DNA of 64,000 nucleotides from contig JBGUTP010000016.1 in assembly GCA_045133095.1 (NCBI GenBank), positions 76,758 through 140,757 of the forward strand, written 5' to 3'. Shown piece by piece: positions 8,910-55,940 of this stretch (positions are counted from its first letter, which is position 1; each line of letters begins with the position of its first letter). Under the pieces are notes generated by a model. It was not told the origin of the DNA, did no database searches, and worked only from the letters and a program-made list of their open reading frames with translations. This DNA is from Candidatus Enterousia sp. (GTDB lineage: Bacteria; Pseudomonadota; Alphaproteobacteria; Rs-D84). The position numbers and the translations under genes are program-made.

Positions 8910-9050
8910 TTTATATCCTCTTGTTCTTAGATAGTTTTAAGGTCTGATGGCAATGCCTTGCCAGTTTGACCGATTGTTATTTTGGCATATTAAAAAGAAA
9001 AATCAAGTTTTTATTGAATATCTGTCTTTTAAAGGCTAAAGTATTGCCCG

Positions 9051-17190: not shown

Positions 17191-18270
17191 TTAATTATTA
17201 AACAAGAAATGGCAAATGTCGCCGGGTTGCATTATATAATCGCGACCAACAAGACGCATTTTGCCGGCTTCTTTGACCGCGACTTCACCGCCAAGTGATA
17301 TAAAATCGTCCGGACTGATTACTTCGGCACGAATAAAACCTTTTTCAAAATCAGTGTGGATTTTGCCCGCCGCCTGGGGTGCGGTCATGCCAGCCTTTAT
17401 GGTCCATGCGTGTGCTTCCTTGGGTCCAATGGTATAATATGTTTGCAAGCCCAATGTTTTATAGCCGGTCTTAATCACCTGGTCCAAGCCAGATTCGGTT
17501 AACCCCAGGTCGTCCAAAAACATCTTGCGTTCGTCGGGGTCAACAATCTGTGATATTTCCATTTCTATCTTGGATGAAATCACCAGAACATCATTTGTGG
17601 CACCAAACTTTTCACGAACCATGTCCGAATATTTATTGCCGGTGGCAGCAGATGCTTCTTCGACATTGCAAACGTATATCACAGGCTTGGTCGTTAATAA
17701 ATTAAAAGGCGCGGCATCAACATCGCCCAGGCGCGCAGGTATCGATTTTTCCAAATTCGCCTTGATAGTATTTGCGTCCGCTAATAATTTAATAGCATCC
17801 TTGTCCAGACCACGTGCCTTTTTTTCAAGATTTTTTATCTGTTTTTCTATGCTTTCCAGGTCCGCCAACATTAATTCTGTTTCAATTGTTTCAATGTCCG
17901 CCAATGGGTCTATACGCCCGTTTACATGGACTATGTCATCATTTTCAAAACATCTGACAACATGAATTATGGCATCAGTTGATAATATATTGCCCAAGAA
18001 TTTATTCCCCAGACCTTCGCCCGCAGATGCACCCTTAACCAGACCTGCGATATCAACAATTTCCAGTTGTGTTGGTAATATCTTCTGAGAGCCAGCAACA
18101 CGCGCCAAAGCATGCAATGTTGCGTCCGGTACAACAACACGACCGGTGTTTGGTTCGATTGTACAGAACGGATAATTTTGCGCGTCCGCCGCCGCACTTT
18201 GCGTTAATGCATTAAATAATGTAGATTTACCAACGTTTGGCAGACCCACAATTCCACAATTGAATCCCAT
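17191..18270 (-). CDS. ychF: Ribosome-binding ATPase YchF
   Basis: MGFNCGIVGLPNVGKSTLFNALT, a C-terminal TGS domain, and the YchF-typical motif. Confidence 0.9.
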   Translation of the reverse strand: MGFNCGIVGLPNVGKSTLFNALTQSAAADAQNYPFCTIEPNTGRVVVPDATLHALARVAGSQKILPTQLEIVDIAGLVKGASAGEGLGNKFLGNILSTDAIIHVVRCFENDDIVHVNGRIDPLADIETIETELMLADLESIEKQIKNLEKKARGLDKDAIKLLADANTIKANLEKSIPARLGDVDAAPFNLLTTKPVIYVCNVEEASAATGNKYSDMVREKFGATNDVLVISSKIEMEISQIVDPDERKMFLDDLGLTESGLDQVIKTGYKTLGLQTYYTIGPKEAHAWTIKAGMTAPQAAGKIHTDFEKGFIRAEVISPDDFISLGGEVAVKEAGKMRLVGRDYIMQPGDICHFLFNN

Positions 18271-18297
18271 AATAAAATCCTTTATAATGGGTTTAAT

Positions 18298-18966
18298 ATG
18301 TCATACATGTGGAACGAATTCAACATAAAAACTTTTCCCGCGGAAACTGTTGTTTACCGCGATGGCGTGTACTGCCCAGAATTATCAACACTGCCCGATG
18401 CGCCGATTAATAAAAATTATGATTTGCCGGTGCATGTTATTTTCGTTGGTGAAATTGATGGGGAAAATAATTTAAATATCGCGGTCGGGGCGGAAAATCA
18501 AAAAGTAATTTTAAGCGTTAATTTAAAAATTAAAAAGCCGGCTTTTTTGAACATTTTTATTAAAAACGCCGGGAAAAATTCTTGTATTAACGGTACCGTG
18601 TTAATGGATAATTATTCTGAATTAACGTATAAATGCGTGGCACATCATTTATATGAAAATACCGGTATTTTGATAAAAGATAAGTTAATTGGACGGCAAA
18701 ATTCATATTCTAAATTATCAGGTACTGCGATTATTGATAAAGATTGTGAAAGATGTGATTCTGATGTCGGTTTTGTGGCAATGGTGGAAGATGGGGCAAA
18801 AATAGAATTTATGCCCGAACAACGAATTTCCGCAGTGCCTTTCGGTGCAGAACACAGCGCAAGTATTTTTAAACCAACCAAAGCACAGATATTTTATCTG
18901 CGTGGGGCAGGGCTGTCAGGCGCAGAGGTTGACACAGTTTTAAAAGAAGCGTTTTTAAGTGAGTAG
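18298..18966 (+). CDS. Short SufD/SufB-family protein (C-terminal half only)
   Basis: The C-terminal motif ...EHSASIF...IFYLRGAGLSGAEVDTVLKEAFL matches the SufB/SufD signature FYLxSRGxxxxEAxxLLxxAF. The protein is only 222 aa. No sufB, sufC or sufS is adjacent. Confidence 0.5.
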   Translation: MSYMWNEFNIKTFPAETVVYRDGVYCPELSTLPDAPINKNYDLPVHVIFVGEIDGENNLNIAVGAENQKVILSVNLKIKKPAFLNIFIKNAGKNSCINGTVLMDNYSELTYKCVAHHLYENTGILIKDKLIGRQNSYSKLSGTAIIDKDCERCDSDVGFVAMVEDGAKIEFMPEQRISAVPFGAEHSASIFKPTKAQIFYLRGAGLSGAEVDTVLKEAFLSE

Positions 18967-18999: not shown

Positions 19000-19034
19000 A
19001 AAAAACCGCCAATCGGCGGAGTTTTTATTTTTTC
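19000..19034. terminator. Bidirectional terminator
   Basis: Hairpin ccgccaatcggcgg flanked by an A-run and T-runs. It overlaps the 3' end of rpmJ. Confidence 0.5.
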
Positions 19035-19159
19035 TTAAAGCCCTGTTTCGCTTTGAACTTTGGATTATCAGGGTCAATTAAGATAACTTGCTTTCCACGA
19101 CGGATTTGTTTTACATTACCGCGTTTCTTCCAAGCCTTTAATGAACTTAAAAATTTCAT
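19025..19159 (-). CDS. rpmJ: 50S ribosomal protein L36, Cys-less type B (44 aa)
   Basis: Hand translation gives MKFLSSLKAWKKRGNVKQIRRGKQVILIDPDNPKFKAKQGFKKK. This is very similar to E. coli YkgO/RpmJ2 ([46 protein letters not shown]). It is below the 60-aa cutoff of the ORF track. Confidence 0.8.
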   Translation of the reverse strand: MKFLSSLKAWKKRGNVKQIRRGKQVILIDPDNPKFKAKQGFKKK

Positions 19160-19227
19160 GTCGTTATCCTTTTTACAATGGCGATTATAAACATATTTTT
19201 TGAAAAATCAAATAATAATATTATTTA

Positions 19228-19465
19228 TTGTTGTTGTTGTTGGGGCTGTTTATATTGTTGAAAACTGTTTTTAGTTTTTTATCAACAAGTTTTTAACAAA
19301 AAAATCCAGGTTTTCTGCGGAATCTTATAAAGATGTTGAAAAAATACAAATGAAATTAACATGTTGATAACTTAGCGATTTTCAACAGTTTTAACAATTT
19401 TAGGGGGTGGGCTTTTTGTGCTTGTTGAAAATTGTTGAAATTGGTATAATTATCAACAAGGACGA
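19228..19465. promoter_or_regulatory. Iteron/DnaA-box-like motif array plus (TTG)5 microsatellite, overlapping the virB3 promoter
   Basis: At least nine copies of TTGTTGAAAA / TTATCAACA(AG) lie in both orientations (19255, 19279, 19335, 19363, 19379, 19423, 19433, 19450). TTATCAACA is one mismatch from the DnaA box TTATCCACA. A TATAAT sits at 19445-19450. Confidence 0.5.
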
Positions 19466-19471
19466 GAGACT

Positions 19472-19768
19472 ATGAAACAGCAAGTATTAAAAGCATTGGC
19501 AAACCCTTCGCACATTTTTTATGTGCCTTATTCGTTAGCCATACTTAATTTTGCCGTGCAGTTTATTATTTTTATGGTCTTGTTTGTTGTGTCGCTGGTT
19601 GCAACAAAGGGAAGTAAGCCATTATCACCGCTGGTTTTCTTGCTGTCGGTTATTGTGGTGCATTCGATAATTGCAATCTTTTCAAAGCGTGACCCACAAT
19701 TGGGGCAGATTGTGACCGCTAAGTTACAATTGTTTAAAAAGAAAATACCAGGAAAATTAGCAGCATGA
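19472..19768 (+). CDS. Type IV secretion protein VirB3/TrbD-like
   Basis: A 98-aa protein with two TM segments. Its stop overlaps the virB4 start, as in trbD-trbE/virB3-virB4 operons. Confidence 0.55.
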   Translation: MKQQVLKALANPSHIFYVPYSLAILNFAVQFIIFMVLFVVSLVATKGSKPLSPLVFLLSVIVVHSIIAIFSKRDPQLGQIVTAKLQLFKKKIPGKLAA

Positions 19769-29022: not shown

Positions 29023-30288
29023 TTGTTGGCCAATCAATTTATAAATGTTAATCGTAAAAAATACGCGACAGGTCTGTTTTGGCAGCCTGTGGCGGCGGGG
29101 TTCGTTGCGCGAAATTATGCCAGAAATTTAGCAAAAAATGTCGATAGAAAACTGAATCTTTATGTGGAATATCGGGCGATGGTTGGTTTGGGGGCGCGTA
29201 AAGGTGGACAGCGTTCCGGTATGCACAGCGCAGCCGCAGAAGTAATGGAAAGTTTTTCAGAATATACTTCGTTCTTGGCAGTGTTCGAAAATGGAAAAAA
29301 GTTCTATTTAGTTGCGGCGCGTAATGGAATTATTCTGGAAGATAAAGTTTTTGATTCCGAAAGTCAGGCGCGTGATGAATATGTAAAATTGTCTGAAATT
29401 CCTGATTGGGGGGCGTTCTTTGCACCTGGGGCGTGGGGAATGCCGCGTGCCGCAGAAAGAAATCTGGCAGATGTTATAACAGGACGTTCAAAGGCGGTTC
29501 TGCGTTCAATCAGTTATTTAAGAAATGGAATTGTGTCGCTGGTTCTGGTGGGATTGTTTGTGTTGGGATTTGTGTTTTTGTTTCGTGATTCTTTGGTTCA
29601 GATGATGACACCAAGACCTAAGAAGCAAGATTTAAACCCGGAATTGGTCGCGGAATATAAAAGACAAATTGAAGAAAAAAATAAGGAACTGGATAAGCAA
29701 TTCCAAATCGAAAAGGAGTTGCCGCCAGAGCCTATTGTTATGCCATACGAATTGTTGCCAGATGTTCAGGCAAGGGCAAAGTTGTGCTATCAGGCGATTG
29801 GTTTCTTGATGCAGCCTGTGGTTGGTTGGAATCAGGTTTGGGCGGAATGTGGTGAAACACATGCGGTCGCAGAATTTAGGCGTACGTTCGGTACGTTGGG
29901 GGAATTTTATAATGTCGCAGCCGGATTAATGCCAGGTGCGTTTGTGCAGGAAATAAATGATGATACGTTAAGAGTTAGTGCCGCGCTGCCTGAATTAGAA
30001 GTAATGTCCAGCCAGGACGAAAGAGATGTGGAAACAGTAATTCGTGATGTTACAACGGCTTTTCAAGGCGTTGATACAAATGTTGAAACGAATGTCGTGG
30101 TTGATACTTTGACTAATGGTGTCGATGTGGCAGATGTTAATGTGGTCGAAGTAGGGGTGGAATCAAAACTGGTGCCAATGCAGTTTATGAAAGTCTTTGA
30201 AGAATTTGGCGGTGTTTATTTGATGCGGGCTGCATGGGATGTGGCGTCGCGGACCTGGAACTATGAGGTGATAATCTATGCAAAATAA
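29023..30288 (+). CDS. Bitopic inner-membrane protein (cytoplasmic domain-TM-periplasmic domain), putative assembly-platform subunit (PilO(R64)/GspL-like role)
   Basis: A 421-aa protein. It has a cytoplasmic domain of about 170 aa, one TM segment (IVSLVLVGLFVLGFVFLF) and a periplasmic domain of about 225 aa with a coiled-coil. It is the first gene of the operon and apparently uses a TTG start. Confidence 0.4.
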   Translation: MLANQFINVNRKKYATGLFWQPVAAGFVARNYARNLAKNVDRKLNLYVEYRAMVGLGARKGGQRSGMHSAAAEVMESFSEYTSFLAVFENGKKFYLVAARNGIILEDKVFDSESQARDEYVKLSEIPDWGAFFAPGAWGMPRAAERNLADVITGRSKAVLRSISYLRNGIVSLVLVGLFVLGFVFLFRDSLVQMMTPRPKKQDLNPELVAEYKRQIEEKNKELDKQFQIEKELPPEPIVMPYELLPDVQARAKLCYQAIGFLMQPVVGWNQVWAECGETHAVAEFRRTFGTLGEFYNVAAGLMPGAFVQEINDDTLRVSAALPELEVMSSQDERDVETVIRDVTTAFQGVDTNVETNVVVDTLTNGVDVADVNVVEVGVESKLVPMQFMKVFEEFGGVYLMRAAWDVASRTWNYEVIIYAK

Positions 30289-30943
30289 AAAAATGTTGTT
30301 GGGGCTGTTGTGTTGTGGGGCAATGTTTATGTTTAATGCACACGCAGCAGAAGAATTAGAAGTCGAAATTGATATGGAACAGGTGTCGGCAGATGCAGTC
30401 GCAGATTATCAAGTCGAAGGGTCTTTGTTTCAGCAAATTACAGATTTAGAACAGGAAAAAGTTCTGATGCAGTTGGAAAAAGAACGCGCGCAGTTGGACC
30501 TGGAATTGGATAGATTGGCGGCAGAAAAAATTAAACTGCATATGGAAATTGATACGCTGTCTGGACGTGCAGAACAGCAACAGCAGGAAATCGAAACACA
30601 AAAGGCTAAGTTAGAGGCGGAAGCTGCAAGAATCGAACGTGAAAAAGAATCTTGGTTGGCGGATTTAGAAGCAAAAGAAAAAAATAAAGCAAGCGATAAA
30701 AAAGTCGTAGAAGCAAAACCAGAAGTGGATATCACAACTAGATATAGACTGGTTAATGTAATTGGTGCAGGAAATCAATTGCAGGCAACAATCGAGGATT
30801 TAAGCAGCGGACAAAGTAAAAGAATAAGCGTGGGAAGAACATTGGATGGTTTGACCGTGAAATCTATATCTTTGTATGATGGGGTGGTGTTCGAAGCAAA
30901 AGATGGAAGTGTTCAAAATTTGAATGTAAGTAATGGAAAATAA
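30278..30943 (+). CDS. PilP/GspC-HR-like periplasmic coiled-coil protein
   Basis: Signal peptide, a long coiled-coil and a C-terminal beta domain. The C-terminal motif is YRLVNVIGAGNQLQATIEDLSSGQSKRISVGRTLDGLTVKSISLYDGVVFE, matching the PilP pattern YxLxGxxxxGxxxxAxIxxxxGQxxxVxxGxxLxxxxVxxIxxxxV. Confidence 0.5.
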   Translation: MQNKKMLLGLLCCGAMFMFNAHAAEELEVEIDMEQVSADAVADYQVEGSLFQQITDLEQEKVLMQLEKERAQLDLELDRLAAEKIKLHMEIDTLSGRAEQQQQEIETQKAKLEAEAARIEREKESWLADLEAKEKNKASDKKVVEAKPEVDITTRYRLVNVIGAGNQLQATIEDLSSGQSKRISVGRTLDGLTVKSISLYDGVVFEAKDGSVQNLNVSNGK

Positions 30944-30951
30944 TATAAAAA

Positions 30952-32586
30952 ATGGCCAAGGAAAAAGAAGTCTTTGAAAATGTTGTAACAACAGATAAAC
31001 CGTCTGTTCCGGCGGGGTTGGAAAACGCAGAGTCAAAAGATATTATCGATTATTTGTTCGCTAATGGAAACAGGTTGCAGACCGCAACAGGGGCGCCATT
31101 GGAACTGCCGCATGATACGCAGGGGTTGGTTGCATATTTTACCGGTGGTGAAGTTATTATTTCCAGAACACACAGATATGATGGACGTGTGTTGGCGTTC
31201 TTGGATTTGTTGAAAAGACGTGGACGTGTTGTAAGACAGCCTTTTTATTCTGATTTAGGATTGATTTCAAATATCTATAAAACATACGAGATGAGATTAG
31301 GGGGTGGGGCGCGTTCTCGTGTGGATTTTGATAATCAAATGCAAAAGGACTTTGTCGATATTATCGCAAAGGCAGCAGCGCAAAAAGTATCTGATGTACA
31401 CGTAGAGGTCGCAGACCAGACAACTATATATTTTCGTATCGATGGCAGTATGCAGCCGGTGTTGGAATATAATTCACAGTGGGGTGAATCTTTCCTGCGT
31501 GCGGCGTTCGCATCGTCGGATATTTCTAATGCTAACTATGCGGTAAACGAATATCAATCAGCACAGAAAGACGGACGAACACCACTGCGTGGAACCAAGG
31601 ATTTATATTTGCCGTCGGGGGTGCTGGGGGTGCGTATGCAATTCAACCCGATTGCGTTTGGTACACGCTATGCGGTGATGCGATTGCTGTATGATAATCC
31701 GTCCGAAGGAATAAAAATCGAACAAGAGTTCGGACCGTATGAACAAAAAATGCTGGCAAGAATGCGGTCGTTCCCAACAGGATTGGTTATTGTCGCAGGT
31801 CCAACAAGTTCAGGTAAATCAACGACGTTAGTGCGCAATATGTCCTTGATGCTGAAAGAGCGCAATTATGAAATTAATATGATTACTGTGGAAAACCCAG
31901 TAGAACAAAAAATATTTGGCGCACGACAGATGCCAGTTGTTAATACGACTAATGAAGAACAGCGTGAAGAAAAATATGTAGAAGCATTGGCAGCAGCGTT
32001 AAGAAGTGACCCTGATACGTTGATGGTCGGAGAAATTCGTACACTTGCCGCAGCACAGTTGACCGTGCGTGGGGCGTTGTCTGGGCATAATGTGTGGACG
32101 ACGTTGCATGCTAATTCTGCAATGGCGGCGTTGACAAGATTGCTGGATTTGGGAATCGAACCGTTCAAATTAAAAGAAGAAACACTGATGCGTGGGTTGG
32201 TGTCAATGCGACTGTTTAAAAAAGTTTGCCCACATTGCCGTGAACCGTTGATGAATCATCCAGAACGTGGGGCATATCGTCGCGTGATGGATGCATATGG
32301 TGAATTAGGATTAAGACAGGTTTATCAACGTGGCGCAGGATGCAGTCATTGCAAAGGTTCAGGACATATGGGGCGTATCAAAGCAGGCGAGATTATTATT
32401 ACTAATAGTGAATTTTTGAGATTGGCTTTGTCCGGGAATACAGATGCGGCGGTGCGGTACTGGATGGAAGAAATGGATGGACGCACGTTAAAAGAAGCCG
32501 CGGCGGCGTTGATGCTGAAAGGAGTGGTGGATATTGACGAACTGGAAAGATGGGTCGGGTATGTTGATGAACCGGGGGCGTACTGA
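30952..32586 (+). CDS. GspE/PilB/TcpT-family secretion ATPase with tetracysteine zinc finger
   Basis: Walker A VAGPTSSGKSTT, Asp box, Walker B LMVGEIR, His box GHNVWTTLHANSA and a CPHC...CSHC motif. The N-terminal roughly 150 aa is atypical. Confidence 0.85.
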   Translation: MAKEKEVFENVVTTDKPSVPAGLENAESKDIIDYLFANGNRLQTATGAPLELPHDTQGLVAYFTGGEVIISRTHRYDGRVLAFLDLLKRRGRVVRQPFYSDLGLISNIYKTYEMRLGGGARSRVDFDNQMQKDFVDIIAKAAAQKVSDVHVEVADQTTIYFRIDGSMQPVLEYNSQWGESFLRAAFASSDISNANYAVNEYQSAQKDGRTPLRGTKDLYLPSGVLGVRMQFNPIAFGTRYAVMRLLYDNPSEGIKIEQEFGPYEQKMLARMRSFPTGLVIVAGPTSSGKSTTLVRNMSLMLKERNYEINMITVENPVEQKIFGARQMPVVNTTNEEQREEKYVEALAAALRSDPDTLMVGEIRTLAAAQLTVRGALSGHNVWTTLHANSAMAALTRLLDLGIEPFKLKEETLMRGLVSMRLFKKVCPHCREPLMNHPERGAYRRVMDAYGELGLRQVYQRGAGCSHCKGSGHMGRIKAGEIIITNSEFLRLALSGNTDAAVRYWMEEMDGRTLKEAAAALMLKGVVDIDELERWVGYVDEPGAY

Positions 32587-32588
32587 AG

Positions 32589-33659
32589 ATGAATAAATTG
32601 GAATTGTGGTATGCTAAATTAGTCTTTCGGTTAAATACTGAAAAACGTATGGCGATTTGCAGAAAATTGGCTTCGTTGTTGCGGAATGATTTTACGCTGA
32701 TTAATGCGTTGGAACGTTTAGAGATGATTGAATCAAAAAACGGTACAAAGCCAAATGAACCATACGCAATTGCTATGCGTGAATGGCAAAAAAGCCTGGA
32801 ACGAGGTATGAGTTTTTCAGATGCAACGCGTGGTTGGGTGCCACCAGAAGAAACACTGTTGGTGACATCAGGTAATTTGTCTAGTTTGGTTGTTGCACTT
32901 GAAAACGTCGGACGCGTCGTAGATGGAACACAGCGTATCAGACGTGCAATGACAACCGCAGTGGCGTATCCTTTGTTCTTGTTAGCGTTGACGTTCGGAA
33001 TCATTATTATGGTTGGGGTTTATCTGGTGCCGCCATTGGCAGAAGTTGCAGGGTCGCAAATTGTATGGCAGGGAACAGCCCGGTCTTTGATATGGGTGTC
33101 TGATATTTCAATAAAATACTGGTATTGGTTCTTGGTGGTTTTTGCAGGTGTCGTTGGGATTATATGGTTGTCTTTGCCAAGATGGTCCGGGCAGCTGAGG
33201 GCAAAATTTGATAAGTTGCCACCGTGGAGCGTTTATAAAATTCAGGTGTCAGTTGGGTGGCTGATGTCGTTGGCGGCAATGGTGAAAACAGGGGTTACAA
33301 TCCCAGATGCTATGCGTATGTTGGCAGATAATGCCAATCGATATCTAAGAAATATATTGGAATCTGCACTGAGGTTTATTGCTAATGGTGATAACTTGGG
33401 GGTGGCGTTGACACACACAAAGCGTAATTTCCCCGATGATGATATTATTGGCGATATTACTATTTACGCAGATATGAATGAATTTGATGATAATTTAAAC
33501 CAGGTCGCAAATGATTATCTTGAAGAGTCTGTACGTAAAATGGAAAAAATTTCTGATACTTTGAACAGTTTGGGGATTTTGCTGGTGTCCGCGATAATTG
33601 CGTGGGTGGTGCTGGGGACGTTCCAGATGCAAGACCAGATTACAAGTGCGCTGTCGTAG
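32589..33659 (+). CDS. GspF/PilC/TcpE-like inner-membrane platform protein
   Basis: A 356-aa protein with two cytoplasmic helical repeats and three TM segments. It carries the AYPLFLLALTFGIIIMVGVYLVPPL (AYPxxxL...P) signature of GspF-family proteins. Confidence 0.7.
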   Translation: MNKLELWYAKLVFRLNTEKRMAICRKLASLLRNDFTLINALERLEMIESKNGTKPNEPYAIAMREWQKSLERGMSFSDATRGWVPPEETLLVTSGNLSSLVVALENVGRVVDGTQRIRRAMTTAVAYPLFLLALTFGIIIMVGVYLVPPLAEVAGSQIVWQGTARSLIWVSDISIKYWYWFLVVFAGVVGIIWLSLPRWSGQLRAKFDKLPPWSVYKIQVSVGWLMSLAAMVKTGVTIPDAMRMLADNANRYLRNILESALRFIANGDNLGVALTHTKRNFPDDDIIGDITIYADMNEFDDNLNQVANDYLEESVRKMEKISDTLNSLGILLVSAIIAWVVLGTFQMQDQITSALS

Positions 33660-55040: not shown

Positions 55041-55940
55041 ATGTATGATGTTATTATCTTGGGGTCGGGACCCGCAGGATTAACCGCAGCGTTATATACA
55101 GCGCGCGCAAATAAAAAAACTGTCGTTCTGGGCGGTGATAGATTAGGCGGACAGACCGCAGGAATTGCCGTGTTGGAAAATTATCCAGGATGGGCAGGCA
55201 GTGGTTTAGAGTTAGCGCAGTTTATGAAAAATCAAGCAGAAACATTTGGTGCGACTGTAGAATTTGTAAGTGCAAAAAATATTTCAGGTGATGCGGAAAA
55301 TGGATTCGTGGTTGCGTGTGATAATGGTGCAGAATACAAAGGGCGCGCAATTATTATCGCAACAGGTGCCAGTCCACGTAAATTAGAAATCGAAGGCGCA
55401 CGTGAATTGATGGGGCGCGGTGTTTCGTACTGTGCAACGTGTGATGGATTCTTTTACAGTGGAAAAACAGTTATGGTTATGGGGGGCGGAAACAGTGCGT
55501 TGAATGATGCGTTGTATTTGGCTGACTTGGCAAAAAATGTAAAAATAGTTTATCGCAAGGGGGCGTTTACGCGGGCAGAAGCCGTATTGCGCGAACGTGT
55601 CGCGGCGCGTGATAATATTGAATGCCTGTTCAATACAGACTTGGCAAAAGTCGCCCTGAAGCCTGATTCCGAAGATGGAGAATTAATCGTAACAACCACC
55701 GCCGGTCAGGAAATTGTTGTTGATGGGTTGTTCGTTGCAATTGGACATGAAGCCAATACTGATTTCTTGTCCGAAGATGTTAAACGTGATAATCTGGGGC
55801 GTTTGGCACCGTCTGCAATGCCCACAGGCATCTTTGTTGCAGGTGATGTTCATTCAGAACTGAAAATGCAAATCGCAACAGCCGTAGGAACAGGGTGTAG
55901 CGCAGGCATGGATGCCATAGCGTACCTAAATAAAATCTAA
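55041..55940 (+). CDS. trxB: Thioredoxin reductase
   Basis: GSGPAG FAD motif, the CATCDG redox-active disulfide and GGGNSA NADPH motif. Confidence 0.9.
   Translation: MYDVIILGSGPAGLTAALYTARANKKTVVLGGDRLGGQTAGIAVLENYPGWAGSGLELAQFMKNQAETFGATVEFVSAKNISGDAENGFVVACDNGAEYKGRAIIIATGASPRKLEIEGARELMGRGVSYCATCDGFFYSGKTVMVMGGGNSALNDALYLADLAKNVKIVYRKGAFTRAEAVLRERVAARDNIECLFNTDLAKVALKPDSEDGELIVTTTAGQEIVVDGLFVAIGHEANTDFLSEDVKRDNLGRLAPSAMPTGIFVAGDVHSELKMQIATAVGTGCSAGMDAIAYLNKI

What the first reader, a model, noticed from the sequence alone, without database searches (positions are those of the whole stretch)
19228..19465. Dense array of TTGTTGAAAA / TTATCAACA motifs (DnaA-box-like) plus a (TTG)5 microsatellite upstream of virB3
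Seen in sequence: the 280-bp AT-rich intergenic region contains at least nine copies of a 9-10-mer in both orientations. These are TTGTTGAAAA x4, TTATCAACAAG x2 and their reverse complements TGTTGATAA and TTTTCAACAG. Two directly abutting copies lie at 19423-19442. A TATAAT at 19445-19450 precedes the virB3 start.

TTATCAACA differs from the canonical DnaA box TTATCCACA at one position. This architecture is typical of plasmid oriV iterons, a chromosomal origin, or a multi-site operator for a T4SS regulator. The adjacent (TTG)5 tract could additionally vary by slippage.
Basis: seen in the sequence. Interest (0 to 1): 0.55.

Follow-up and report, generated by a model that had tools for sequence, protein, structure and literature searches.

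The report
Probable chromosome origin upstream of virB3
The repeated 9-mers between rpmJ and virB3 are real, are conserved across a whole genus of uncultured, small-genome gut bacteria (Candidatus Enterousia), and most likely mark a chromosome replication origin with the type IV secretion promoter built into it, not a slippage-prone or plasmid-type element.

Summary
The 311-bp rpmJ|virB3 spacer (19161-19471; 27% GC against 42% for the window) carries 8 TGTTGA cores where 0.36 are expected (0 of 5000 shuffles). No other such cluster occurs in 64 kb.

In 76 Enterousia species the true unit is TGTT[G/A]A[A/T]AA, at 11 fixed positions. This equals the relaxed DnaA box TGTGNAWAA with one fixed change.

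The left end reads: AT-rich tract (the least stable 40-mer in the window), then (T-N-G)x5, a 4-bp GC cluster, a weak 9-mer and a strong 9-mer. This has the geometry of the DnaA-box/DnaA-trio unwinding module, including its 13-bp spacer. The central adenine of the trios is mostly missing; the window has TTG x5.

Third-codon GC skew steps up sharply at this spacer in about 70 species. In one genome it switches sign (-0.24 to +0.45). gidA, recF, gyrB, parB and rnpA lie nearby.

Best reading (about 0.5): oriC with variant DnaA boxes and outward rpmJ and virB3 promoters. Main rival (about 0.27): a multi-site operator for an unknown regulator.

Weak points are that left-flank skew is near zero in the window's lineage and that no dnaA sequence could be examined. 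(TTG)5 slippage, iterons and VirG boxes are not supported.

The parts
19026..19160 (-). rpmJ (ribosomal protein L36, Cys-less type, 44 aa), the left boundary gene
   Evidence: Pfam PF00444. It is linked to the spacer in every locus that reaches far enough upstream: all 76 species analysed plus the conspecific contigs.
19184..19211 (-). rpmJ promoter: -35 TTGATT (19211-19206), 16-bp spacer, -10 TATAAT (19189-19184)
   Evidence: 10 of 12 consensus match. The hexamers are nearly invariant in 76 species. Function is inferred.
19184..19227 (.). AT-rich tract, the candidate DNA-unwinding element; it overlaps the rpmJ promoter
   Evidence: 19184-19223 is the least stable 40-bp duplex of the whole 64-kb window. 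Positions 19195-19227 average 93% A+T across species.
19228..19242 (+). (TTG)5, the window's version of a conserved T-N-G x5 trinucleotide element (DnaA-trio-like; TAG in many relatives)
   Evidence: Four or five of the five triplets are T-N-G in 63 of 76 species, and the box-proximal triplet is TAG in most species. The length is invariant in 7 conspecific sequences.
19243..19246 (.). 4-bp GC cluster (GGGC)
   Evidence: GGCC, GGGC, GCCC or GGGG at this position in 56 of 76 species.
19247..19255 (+). Box F1p, the weak proximal 9-mer (TGTTTATAT here; TGTTGAAAT in many species)
   Evidence: Core GTTnA present in 58 of 76 species.
19256..19264 (+). Box F1d, the strong distal 9-mer TGTTGAAAA
   Evidence: Exact in 60 of 76 species and matches the motif in 73 of 76. 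It lies 13 bp from the last triplet.
19279..19298 (-). Boxes R2a (TTATCAACA) and R2b (TTTTTAACA), 11 bp apart. Together they read TCAA-N7-TTAA, which is CtrA-box-like.
   Evidence: R2b matches the motif in 76 of 76 species and R2a has the core in 73 of 76. A perfect TTAA-N7-TTAA occurs somewhere in the spacer in 30 of 76 species.
19313..19320 (.). Conserved central element TTCTGCGG, function unknown. The hairpin idea was rejected.
   Evidence: kept in the distant relative L109. No covariation beyond shuffles.
19334..19342 (+). Box F3, TGTTGAAAA
   Evidence: Motif present in 68 of 76 species.
19353..19370 (.). Back-to-back boxes R4a (AAATTAACA) and F4b (TGTTGATAA)
   Evidence: R4a core in 72 of 76 species. 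In most species F4b reads GTTGAAAA directly after AACA; the window has a 1-bp insertion.
19379..19396 (-). Boxes R5a (TTTTCAACA) and R5b (GTTTTAACA), 9 bp apart
   Evidence: Core in 69 of 76 and 76 of 76 species.
19422..19450 (+). Boxes F6a (19423-19431) and F6b (19433-19441), overlapping the virB3 promoter: -35 TTGTTG (19422-19427) and extended -10 TGGTATAAT (19442-19450)
   Evidence: F6a is exact in 74 of 76 species and F6b in 65 of 76. The segment is 95% identical to the window across species. Promoter function is inferred from the consensus.
19450..19458 (-). TTATCAACA copy just downstream of the -10 hexamer. It is lineage-specific and not part of the conserved array.
   Evidence: Motif in only 10 of 76 species.
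19472..22194 (+). virB3 (19472-19768) and virB4 (19765-22194), the right boundary operon
   Evidence: Pfam PF05101 and PF03135.

Best explanation
The rpmJ|virB3 spacer is a chromosomal replication origin of Candidatus Enterousia, either the origin or one of its origins. Two outward-facing promoters are embedded in it.

**Proposed mechanism (inferred).**
1. DnaA binds eleven variant DnaA boxes, TGTT[G/A]A[A/T]AA. This is TGTGNAWAA with G4 changed to T.
2. The tandem pair F1d/F1p, the 4-bp GC cluster and the five T-N-G triplets act like a basal unwinding system. They guide a DnaA filament into the adjacent AT-rich tract (19184-19227), which melts.
3. The rpmJ promoter fires leftward and the virB3 promoter fires rightward, away from the origin. 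Divergent transcription would add negative supercoiling.
4. Boxes F6a/F6b overlap the -35 region and spacer of the virB3 promoter. Initiator occupancy would therefore also gate virB3-virB4 transcription.

**Shown:** the anatomy, its conservation, its uniqueness in the sequence examined, and its coincidence with a strand-skew discontinuity.

**Inferred:** the identity of the binding protein, unwinding, origin firing, and promoter coupling.
For: 1. **Motif.** The unit is a 9-mer. Its only variable positions (G .56/A .44, and A .79/T .20) fall on the N and W of the DnaA-box consensus, with one fixed difference (the consensus TTATNCACA is as used in PMC1914354). A DnaA domain IV has been shown to bind an oligonucleotide containing TTATCAACA (PMC4674748).
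2. **Array.** Eleven positionally conserved sites occur in about 200 bp, in both orientations, with tandem spacings of 9, 10 and 11 bp.
3. **BUS geometry** as defined in PMC8287927. There are tandem co-oriented boxes with a 0-bp gap, and the distal box is the better conserved. A 4-bp GC cluster follows, giving a 13-bp spacer, which is the modal value. The triplet repeats lie on the strand whose 3' end faces the boxes, and TAG (3'-GAT-5') is the commonest triplet next to the boxes.
4. **Duplex stability.** The least stable 40-bp duplex of the 64 kb abuts the triplets.
5. **Strand skew.** In the window, genes right of 19.4 kb have a plus-strand GC3 skew of about +0.43 on the plus strand and about +0.31 on the minus strand. 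Genes to the left have about +0.2 and -0.09. Across about 70 species the means are 0.00 and -0.17 on the left against +0.34 and +0.17 on the right. In deep-branching species the nearest left genes are at -0.2 to -0.5. In contig JAZONN010000016.1 the region 12.6 to 33.5 kb to the left has r of about -0.24 while virB4 is at +0.48. That is a sign switch with origin polarity.
6. **Uniqueness.** This is the only cluster under an Ori-Finder-like rule in the window plus 10 kb. No similar array occurs in about 100 kb of neighbouring DNA from 5 species.
7. **Ori-linked genes nearby.** recF, gyrB, dnaG and topA lie in the window. gidA lies about 27 kb to the left. parB and rnpA-yidD sit beside fabD-gidA in relatives.
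8. **Non-coding conservation.** Identity to the window is 0.84-0.95 in the two end modules, against 0.49 at virB3 third codon positions and 0.39 in the 5' UTR.
Against: 1. **Left-flank skew.** In the window's own lineage the left domain is not negative. r is about 0 to +0.19 out to 29 kb left of the spacer. A simple single bidirectional origin here does not fit that lineage.
2. **Inverted-block species.** In species where the block rpmJ-spacer-virB3-virB4 is inverted in place, virB4 skew falls from about +0.39 to about +0.09. An origin inside the block should have preserved it, unless left-side skew is generally weak. Divergence estimates make a simple decay after inversion equally possible.
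3. **Motif mismatch.** The fixed difference is at a normally conserved DnaA-box position. Exact TTATCAACA is not conserved.
4. **Trios.** The central adenine required of DnaA-trios is absent in the window (TTG x5). Three or more consecutive N-A-N triplets occur in only 4 of 76 species. Central A-to-T substitutions lower origin activity in B. subtilis (PMC10721633).
5. **No initiator sequence.** No dnaA or ctrA gene lies in any sequence I hold, so an altered DnaA specificity could not be checked.
6. **Promoter overlap.** The best-conserved pair of sites sits on the virB3 promoter, as an operator would.
Confidence: 0.5

Rival explanations
1. The array is a multi-site transcriptional operator. 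An unidentified sequence-specific regulator binds the eleven TGTTRAWAA sites and controls the divergent virB3-virB4 and rpmJ promoters. The regulator could be a CtrA-like or OmpR-family response regulator, or a small T4SS regulator of the EcxR kind. The region would have no role in replication.
For: - The array lies directly upstream of the T4SS operon in every species, including a more distant relative.
- The two best-conserved sites overlap the -35 region and spacer of the virB3 promoter.
- Sites R2a/R2b read T[T/C]AA-N7-TTAAC, and 30 of 76 species have a perfect CtrA-type TTAA-N7-TTAA somewhere in the spacer.
- The rpmJ-spacer-virB3 block moves as one unit in inversions.
Against: - No regulator gene lies among the neighbours.
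- No further sites lie upstream of other operons in the window, including hyp572 and the pilus genes.
- Tandem spacings of 9, 10 and 11 bp do not fit a fixed dimer.
- A 3-nt periodic T-N-G element, a GC clamp and the most meltable tract are not explained.
- The skew step at exactly this spacer is not explained.
- VirG vir boxes are not enriched.
Confidence: 0.27
2. The array is a DnaA-box cluster that binds DnaA without firing replication. It would act as a DnaA-controlled promoter region, or as a titration locus of the datA/DARS kind, lying near the true origin but distinct from it.
For: - The motif arguments are the same as for the best explanation.
- Ori-linked genes such as gidA, parB and rnpA lie tens of kb to the left.
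- Left-flank skew is about 0 in many lineages.
Against: - No other box cluster was found in about 100 kb of the neighbouring region.
- The sharpest skew discontinuity is at this spacer, not elsewhere in the 75 kb examined.
- The BUS-like module with an adjacent meltable tract is an origin feature.
Confidence: 0.1
3. The array is a plasmid-type oriV made of iterons, a remnant of an integrated conjugative element that carries the T4SS.
For: - The repeats lie next to T4SS genes.
- An R64-like thin-pilus cluster, topA and dnaG lie nearby.
Against: - The units are 9-mers in both orientations with irregular spacing, not 17-22-bp direct iterons.
- There is no rep gene within 20 kb.
- The neighbours are single-copy core genes in a genome of about 0.9 Mb.
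- Synteny is conserved in 76 species.
Confidence: 0.03
4. (TTG)5 is a contingency microsatellite that switches expression of rpmJ or virB3 by slippage.
For: There are five perfect trinucleotide repeats upstream of two promoters.
Against: - The length is identical in the window and 6 conspecific contigs from different samples.
- Relatives keep the 15-nt length but substitute bases (TAGTAGTTGTAGTAG, TTGTTGTTTTAGTAG). That is the signature of constraint, not slippage.
Confidence: 0.02

Closest known systems
Basal unwinding system (BUS) of bacterial oriC: tandem DnaA boxes, GC-rich spacer and DnaA-trios next to an AT-rich region (B. subtilis incC, H. pylori and others; PMC8287927, PMC10721633)
   Same: - Two co-oriented 9-mers with a 0-bp gap, the distal one better conserved.
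- A 4-bp GC cluster.
- A 13-bp spacer to the first triplet.
- Five 3-nt repeats on the strand whose 3' end faces the boxes.
- TAG (3'-GAT-5') is the commonest triplet next to the boxes.
- An AT-rich, least stable tract lies beyond.
   Different: - The boxes are TGTTGAAAA, with 2 mismatches to TGTGGATAA, one of them fixed.
- The conserved triplet positions are the outer T and G. The central base is T or A, whereas BUS requires a central A. The window has none.
- Binding and unwinding are untested.
Alphaproteobacterial origins: Caulobacter Cori and the roughly 400-bp intergenic ori of Wolbachia, Ehrlichia and Rickettsia, with DnaA, CtrA and IHF sites (PMC1914354)
   Same: - A 300-400-bp AT-rich intergenic region.
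- Several initiator boxes.
- TTAA-N7-TTAA-like pairs overlapping the boxes.
- A strong promoter inside the origin.
- GC skew that is often blurred by rearrangements.
   Different: - The flanking genes are rpmJ and virB3, not hemE with COG1806 or COG1253.
- No canonical TTATNCACA box is conserved.
- There is only one weak IHF match.
- The presence of ctrA in this genus is unknown.
E. coli oriC with its flanking gidA and mioC promoters (from my own knowledge)
   Same: - The order AT-rich DUE, GC-rich stretch, then a box reading TGTGGATAA on the same strand.
- Arrays of 9-mers in opposed orientations.
- Outward or adjacent transcription that modulates opening.
   Different: - There are no GATC sites or 13-mers.
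- The box sequence differs.
- Here the promoters lie inside the array.
Operators of T4SS regulators: Agrobacterium VirG vir boxes (TNCAATTGAAAY) and Ehrlichia EcxR at virB promoters (from my own knowledge)
   Same: - The position upstream of a virB operon.
- A shared TTGAAA(Y) fragment.
   Different: - The vir-box pattern is not enriched. One 1-mismatch hit occurs in the spacer, outside the repeats, and the window total is below chance.
- No regulator gene is nearby.
- There are eleven sites rather than one to three.

Membership tests
DnaA-dependent chromosomal origin (oriC) | Cluster of at least 3-4 DnaA boxes | tested here: inconclusive
   There are three TTATCAACA copies (1 mismatch to TTATCCACA) within 172 bp. 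This is the only such cluster in the window plus 10 kb. The unit conserved across the genus is TGTTRAWAA, which has 2 mismatches, one of them fixed.
DnaA-dependent chromosomal origin (oriC) | Adjacent AT-rich DNA-unwinding element | tested here: met
   19184-19223 is the least stable 40-mer of the 64 kb. The tract averages 93% A+T across species.
DnaA-dependent chromosomal origin (oriC) | Strand-composition (GC-skew) switch from negative to positive at the site | tested here: inconclusive
   A sharp upward step occurs at the spacer in about 70 species. A true sign switch is seen in deep-branching species and in JAZONN010000016.1. In the window's lineage the left side is about 0 to +0.19.
DnaA-dependent chromosomal origin (oriC) | Neighbourhood of origin-linked genes | tested here: met
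   recF, gyrB, dnaG and topA are in the window. gidA lies about 27 kb to the left. parB and rnpA-yidD are next to fabD-gidA in relatives. No dnaA lies within the region from about -35 to +45 kb.
DnaA-dependent chromosomal origin (oriC) | DnaA binding, and replication starting there (marker frequency, autonomous replication) | not testable with these tools
   This needs EMSA or footprinting with Enterousia DnaA, and read-depth profiles on a closed genome.
Basal unwinding system (BUS) | One or two co-oriented DnaA boxes (at most 2 and at most 4 mismatches), with a gap of at most 3 bp | tested here: met
   The distal box TGTTGAAAA has 2 mismatches (60 of 76 species exact). The proximal box has 2-5 mismatches. 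The gap is 0 bp (criteria).
Basal unwinding system (BUS) | Spacer of at most 16 bp (mode 13) including a GC-rich stretch of about 4 bp | tested here: met
   The spacer is 13 bp. The cluster is GGCC, GGGC, GCCC or GGGG in 56 of 76 species.
Basal unwinding system (BUS) | At least 3 consecutive DnaA-trios with a central adenine (3'-NAN-5') | tested here: not met
   The window has TTG x5, so 0 of 5. Three or more consecutive such triplets occur in only 4 of 76 species. The box-proximal triplet is TAG in most species.
Alphaproteobacterial Cori-type origin | CtrA sites (TTAA-N7-TTAA) and an IHF site (WATCAN5WTR) | tested here: inconclusive
   The window has no perfect CtrA site and has 2 loci with 1 mismatch. 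Perfect sites occur in 30 of 76 species. There is one IHF-consensus hit at 19357 on the minus strand. No ctrA gene lies in the held DNA.
Plasmid iteron oriV | Direct repeats of 17-22 bp in one orientation plus an adjacent rep gene | tested here: not met
   The units are 9-mers in both orientations. No Rep family is present among the neighbours.
VirG vir-box operator | TNCAATTGAAAY boxes upstream of vir promoters | tested here: not met
   One 1-mismatch hit lies in the spacer, not at a repeat. The window has 86 hits against 110 expected.
OmpR/PhoB/CtrA-type response-regulator tandem sites | Direct half-sites at a fixed spacing of 10-11 bp | tested here: not met
   Tandem pairs are spaced 9, 11, 9 and 10 bp. 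Only R2a/R2b fits N7.
Phase-variable simple-sequence contingency locus | Repeat-number polymorphism among close strains | tested here: not met
   (TTG)5 is present in all 7 conspecific sequences.

The most novel reading that the evidence does not exclude
The spacer is an unconventional origin, with three proposed features.
1. Its DnaA has shifted specificity, to TGTTNAWAA boxes and T-N-G triplets.
2. It establishes a strongly skewed rightward replichore. The left side is replicated in mixed directions, through part-time or unidirectional firing or through a second origin nearby.
3. Its last two initiator boxes form the promoter of the virB3-virB4 secretion operon. Secretion-system expression would therefore be wired directly to the initiation state of the cell.
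Probability: 0.15. Interest if true: 0.75.

Novelty: new variant of a known kind. Interest (0 to 1): 0.5.

Why it matters
Candidatus Enterousia (order Rs-D84) is an abundant, uncultured gut lineage with genomes of 0.75-1.0 Mb. Nothing is known about how it replicates or how it controls its type IV secretion system.

If this spacer is the origin, it would give four things:
- An anchor for growth-rate estimates from metagenomes (peak-to-trough ratios).
- A natural variant of the DnaA box and of the DnaA-trio, with the central A replaced by T, to test current unwinding models.
- A case of an origin that contains the promoter of a secretion operon.
- An explanation for the local hotspot of small inversions.

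If it is instead an operator, it defines an 11-site control region of a T4SS for an unknown regulator.

Tried and rejected
1. **Hairpin or terminator at 19303-19325.** Several species show perfect palindromes there. RNAalifold found no consensus structure, and pair counts were no better than shuffles.
2. **Known RNA families.** Only sub-threshold chance hits were found in the spacer.
3. **VirG vir boxes.** Not enriched.
4. **Regulator or Rep gene nearby.** None was found in the 64 kb with Pfam, or among ten hypothetical ORFs with NCBIfam.
5. **Inverted-block species as a natural experiment.** The inversion arose at least three times. However, 4-fold divergence (JC 0.7-0.95) means that simple decay after inversion predicts the observed virB4 skew about as well as the alternative. 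The test does not discriminate.
6. **A second candidate origin at the divergent rpmI|mreC spacer (8910-9050).** It has no box array.
7. **Walking left to find a negative-skew domain in the window's own species.** I reached 29 kb left of the spacer without finding one.
8. **Metagenome scan with a degenerate pattern.** Most hits were chance. It recovered three more Enterousia-like loci and one more distant relative (VirB4 66% identical), all in the same rpmJ|virB3 context.
9. **Search for dnaA and ctrA in all held DNA.** Neither was found.
Full report
**Source and setting**

The window is a chromosome fragment (41.9% GC) of an uncultured gut alphaproteobacterium of the candidate genus Enterousia, order Rs-D84. 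Identical VirB3 proteins occur in MAG GCA_045631125.1 and in several gut metagenome assemblies. Eighty species-level genomes, many labelled Candidatus Enterousia, carry VirB4 orthologues at 75-89% identity. Genomes of this genus are 0.75-1.0 Mb (PMC12306168).

The local gene order is topA, dnaG, ychF(-), a SufBD-like gene, rpmJ(-), the 311-bp spacer, virB3, virB4, then a 207-aa ORF, an outer-membrane protein (-), a 572-aa ORF, lpxK, lpxC, an R64-like thin-pilus cluster and gyrB. No transcription factor or Rep protein is encoded anywhere in the 64 kb.

**Checking the observation**

Two corrections apply:
- Only two of the four 'TTGTTGAAAA' copies are exact.
- The spacer is 311 bp, not 280 bp.

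The spacer holds 8 TGTTGA/TCAACA cores, against 0.36 expected from dinucleotide shuffles (0 of 5000 shuffles reach 8). The 8-mer TGTT[GA]A[AT]A occurs 10 times in the spacer and only 32 times in the other 63.7 kb. No other 311-bp window holds more than 4 of the 6-mer cores TGTT[GA]A, against 11 in the spacer. The array is real and unique in this window.

**What comparison across species shows**

rpmJ and virB3 are neighbours, separated by about 310 bp, in all 76 species for which both genes were recovered.

The spacer is better conserved than neutral sites. Mean identity to the window is:

| Segment | Identity |
|---|---|
| Left module, 19161-19264 | 0.84 |
| 19421-19450 | 0.95 |
| virB3 third codon positions | 0.49 |
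| virB3 5' UTR | 0.39 |

The conserved unit is TGTT[G/A]A[A/T]AA. It sits at eleven fixed positions:
- F1p/F1d at 19247 and 19256
- R2a/R2b at 19279 and 19290
- F3 at 19334
- R4a/F4b at 19353 and 19362
- R5a/R5b at 19379 and 19388
- F6a/F6b at 19423 and 19433

(TTG)5 is identical in seven conspecific sequences. In relatives it is a 15-nt T-N-G x5 element that keeps its length but varies in sequence, for example TAGTAGTTGTAGTAG. It is a constrained element, not a slipping microsatellite.

**The promoters**

On the minus strand, TTGATT-16-TATAAT (19211-19184) precedes rpmJ. On the plus strand, TTGTTG-17-TATAAT with a TG extension (19422-19450) precedes virB3. Both are nearly invariant. F6a/F6b therefore lie on the -35 region and spacer of the virB3 promoter. 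Promoter function is inferred from consensus only.

**Why I take the origin reading seriously**

1. **Motif degeneracy.** The two variable positions of the motif coincide with the N and W of the DnaA-box consensus. The form TTATNCACA is as used in PMC1914354; the form TT[A/T]TNCACA is from my own knowledge. That leaves one fixed difference, TGT[T]NAWAA against TGT[G]NAWAA. A cyanobacterial DnaA domain IV binds an oligonucleotide containing TTATCAACA (PMC4674748).

2. **The left-end module.** The left end reads AT-rich tract, T-N-G x5, 4-bp GC cluster, weaker 9-mer, stronger 9-mer. Pelliciari et al. (PMC8287927) define the basal unwinding system as follows:
   - a box with at most 2 mismatches;
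   - an optional second box, within 3 bp, with at most 4 mismatches;
   - a GC-rich stretch of about 4 bp;
   - a spacer of at most 16 bp, with a mode of 13;
   - at least 3 trios with a central A, 3'-GAT-5' being commonest next to the box.

   Here the spacer is exactly 13 bp and the gap is 0 bp. The distal box is exact in 60 of 76 species. The GC cluster is GGCC, GGGC, GCCC or GGGG in 56 of 76 species. The box-proximal triplet is TAG in most species. The strand and orientation match those of B. subtilis and E. coli DUE-R1; that comparison rests on my own knowledge. The central-adenine rule is not met: the window has none, and only 4 of 76 species have three in a row. In B. subtilis, central A-to-T changes lower origin activity (PMC10721633).

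3. **Duplex stability.** The least stable 40-bp duplex of the entire window is 19184-19223, directly beside the triplets.

4. **Uniqueness.** With an Ori-Finder-like rule, this is the only box cluster in the window plus a 10-kb extension. No comparable array occurs in about 100 kb of neighbouring DNA from five species.

**Strand skew**

Raw GC skew rises monotonically, which at first looked like a refutation. Separating genes by strand shows a discontinuity exactly at the spacer.

In the window, the plus-strand GC3 skew is:

| Side | Plus-strand genes | Minus-strand genes |
|---|---|---|
| Right of 19.4 kb | about +0.43 | about +0.31 |
| Left | about +0.2 | about -0.09 |

At 4-fold sites the replication-type component is about +0.04 (0.5-8.7 kb), +0.19 (9-19 kb) and +0.38 (beyond 19.4 kb).

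The step is present across about 70 species. Mean values are 0.00 and -0.17 on the left and +0.34 and +0.17 on the right. In deep-branching species the genes just left of the spacer are at -0.2 to -0.5.

For one genome I recovered both sides of the same contig, JAZONN010000016.1. The region 12.6 to 33.5 kb to the left has plus-strand genes at -0.14 and minus-strand genes at -0.33, so r is about -0.24. virB4 is at +0.48. That is a sign switch with origin polarity.

The left domain carries gidA, a gidB-like gene, recF and mreB. In relatives it also carries parB and rnpA-yidD, which are classical origin-linked genes.

**What does not fit**

- In the window's own lineage the left domain has r of about 0 to +0.19 out to 29 kb left of the spacer, not a negative value. 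Other species range from about -0.1 to +0.17.
- The block rpmJ-spacer-virB3-virB4-207aa has been inverted in place at least three times. In those species virB4 skew is about +0.09 instead of about +0.39.
- That result is expected if the fork direction is set outside the block, with the skew decaying after inversion; 4-fold divergence of 0.7-0.95 makes this quantitatively possible. It is equally expected if everything left of the spacer equilibrates near zero. The natural experiment does not discriminate.
- topA and dnaG keep a constant orientation across the genus yet never reach the right-hand skew. Their near-zero value therefore looks like an equilibrium.
- Under the usual interpretation of skew, that requires leftward forks to start at the spacer in some replication cycles. 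That is an inference, not an observation.
- The left domain is also rearrangement-prone: blocks are translocated or inverted between species, and a strain-variable mobile element sits next to ileS. This can blur skew, as noted for other alphaproteobacteria (PMC1914354).

**Rivals**

- **Multi-site operator for an unknown regulator.** This remains plausible. The array never separates from virB3, even in a relative with only 66% VirB4 identity, and the best-conserved pair sits on the promoter. It does not explain the triplet/GC-clamp/meltable module, the variable 9-11-bp spacing or the skew step. No regulator gene or second target was found.
- **DnaA-binding regulatory cluster near, but distinct from, the true origin.** This is possible.
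- **Iterons and contingency slippage.** Both are disfavoured.
- **A conserved hairpin in the centre of the spacer.** Tested and rejected.

**Verdict**

The most likely identity, at about 0.5, is a chromosomal replication origin with variant DnaA boxes and embedded rpmJ and virB3 promoters. This would be a new variant of a known kind, in a lineage where no origin has been described.

The decisive tests are whole-genome skew and read-depth profiles on a closed Enterousia genome, plus DnaA binding. None of these could be run here.

Noticed in passing
window 19026-22829 compared with L014, L016, L017, L018, L021, L034, L046, L075, L080, L083: The block rpmJ-spacer-virB3-virB4-207aa ORF is inverted in place relative to its flanks in at least three independent lineages. 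The endpoints lie in the short convergent spacers suf|rpmJ and 207aa|OMP.
   Followed up: partly
window 17191-18966 compared with L031, L033, L036, L039, L047, L049, L051, L058; also L001 31-1798: The ychF-suf pair is inverted in one clade. A conspecific MAG (L001) has an OMP gene instead of dnaG upstream of ychF. The origin-side flank is a hotspot of small rearrangements.
   Followed up: partly
L087 17671-21341, L089 17682-19533, L091 7808-11478 against L088 17448-21341 (left of the window start): A strain-variable insertion lies next to ileS and an 89-aa ORF in contigs that otherwise match the window. It carries DUF4238, AAA_25 and a Bro-N phage-type gene. L088 has gidA-fabG-fabD at that position instead.
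   Followed up: no
window 29023-33659: There is a type IVb (R64 thin-pilus-like) gene cluster: a PilO-like gene (PF06864), a PilP-like gene (TIGR03021), a T2SSE ATPase and a T2SSF platform protein. In another species (L097 15235-19882) the same cluster lies directly next to gidA.
   Followed up: no
window 19313-19320: The central element TTCTGCGG is conserved, even in the distant relative L109 (1512-1519). It is not part of the 9-mer family and is not a conserved hairpin.
   Followed up: partly
window 55041-55940: The thioredoxin-reductase-like gene has a GC3 skew of +0.07 inside a domain where neighbours show +0.3 to +0.66. It may be a recent arrival or a recent inversion.
   Followed up: no
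window 19006-19019: A perfect GC-rich hairpin (CCGCCAATCGGCGG) has T-runs on both strands between the SufBD-like gene and rpmJ. It looks like a bidirectional terminator and is also one endpoint region of the block inversion.
   Followed up: no
window 23510-23572: The 572-aa ORF (TTG start) overlaps the start of the divergent OMP gene by 63 nt, so its true start is probably further downstream. Neither this ORF nor the 207-aa ORF after virB4 matches any Pfam or NCBIfam family convincingly. They may be divergent T4SS components.
   Followed up: no
L158 5353-5485 and L171 4083-4735: The degenerate pattern scan also hit unrelated, very AT-rich metagenome contigs (17% and 25% GC). They carry tandem arrays of a TGTTRAWA-containing unit with periods of about 15 bp and about 66 bp. 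They are not related to this locus.
   Followed up: no
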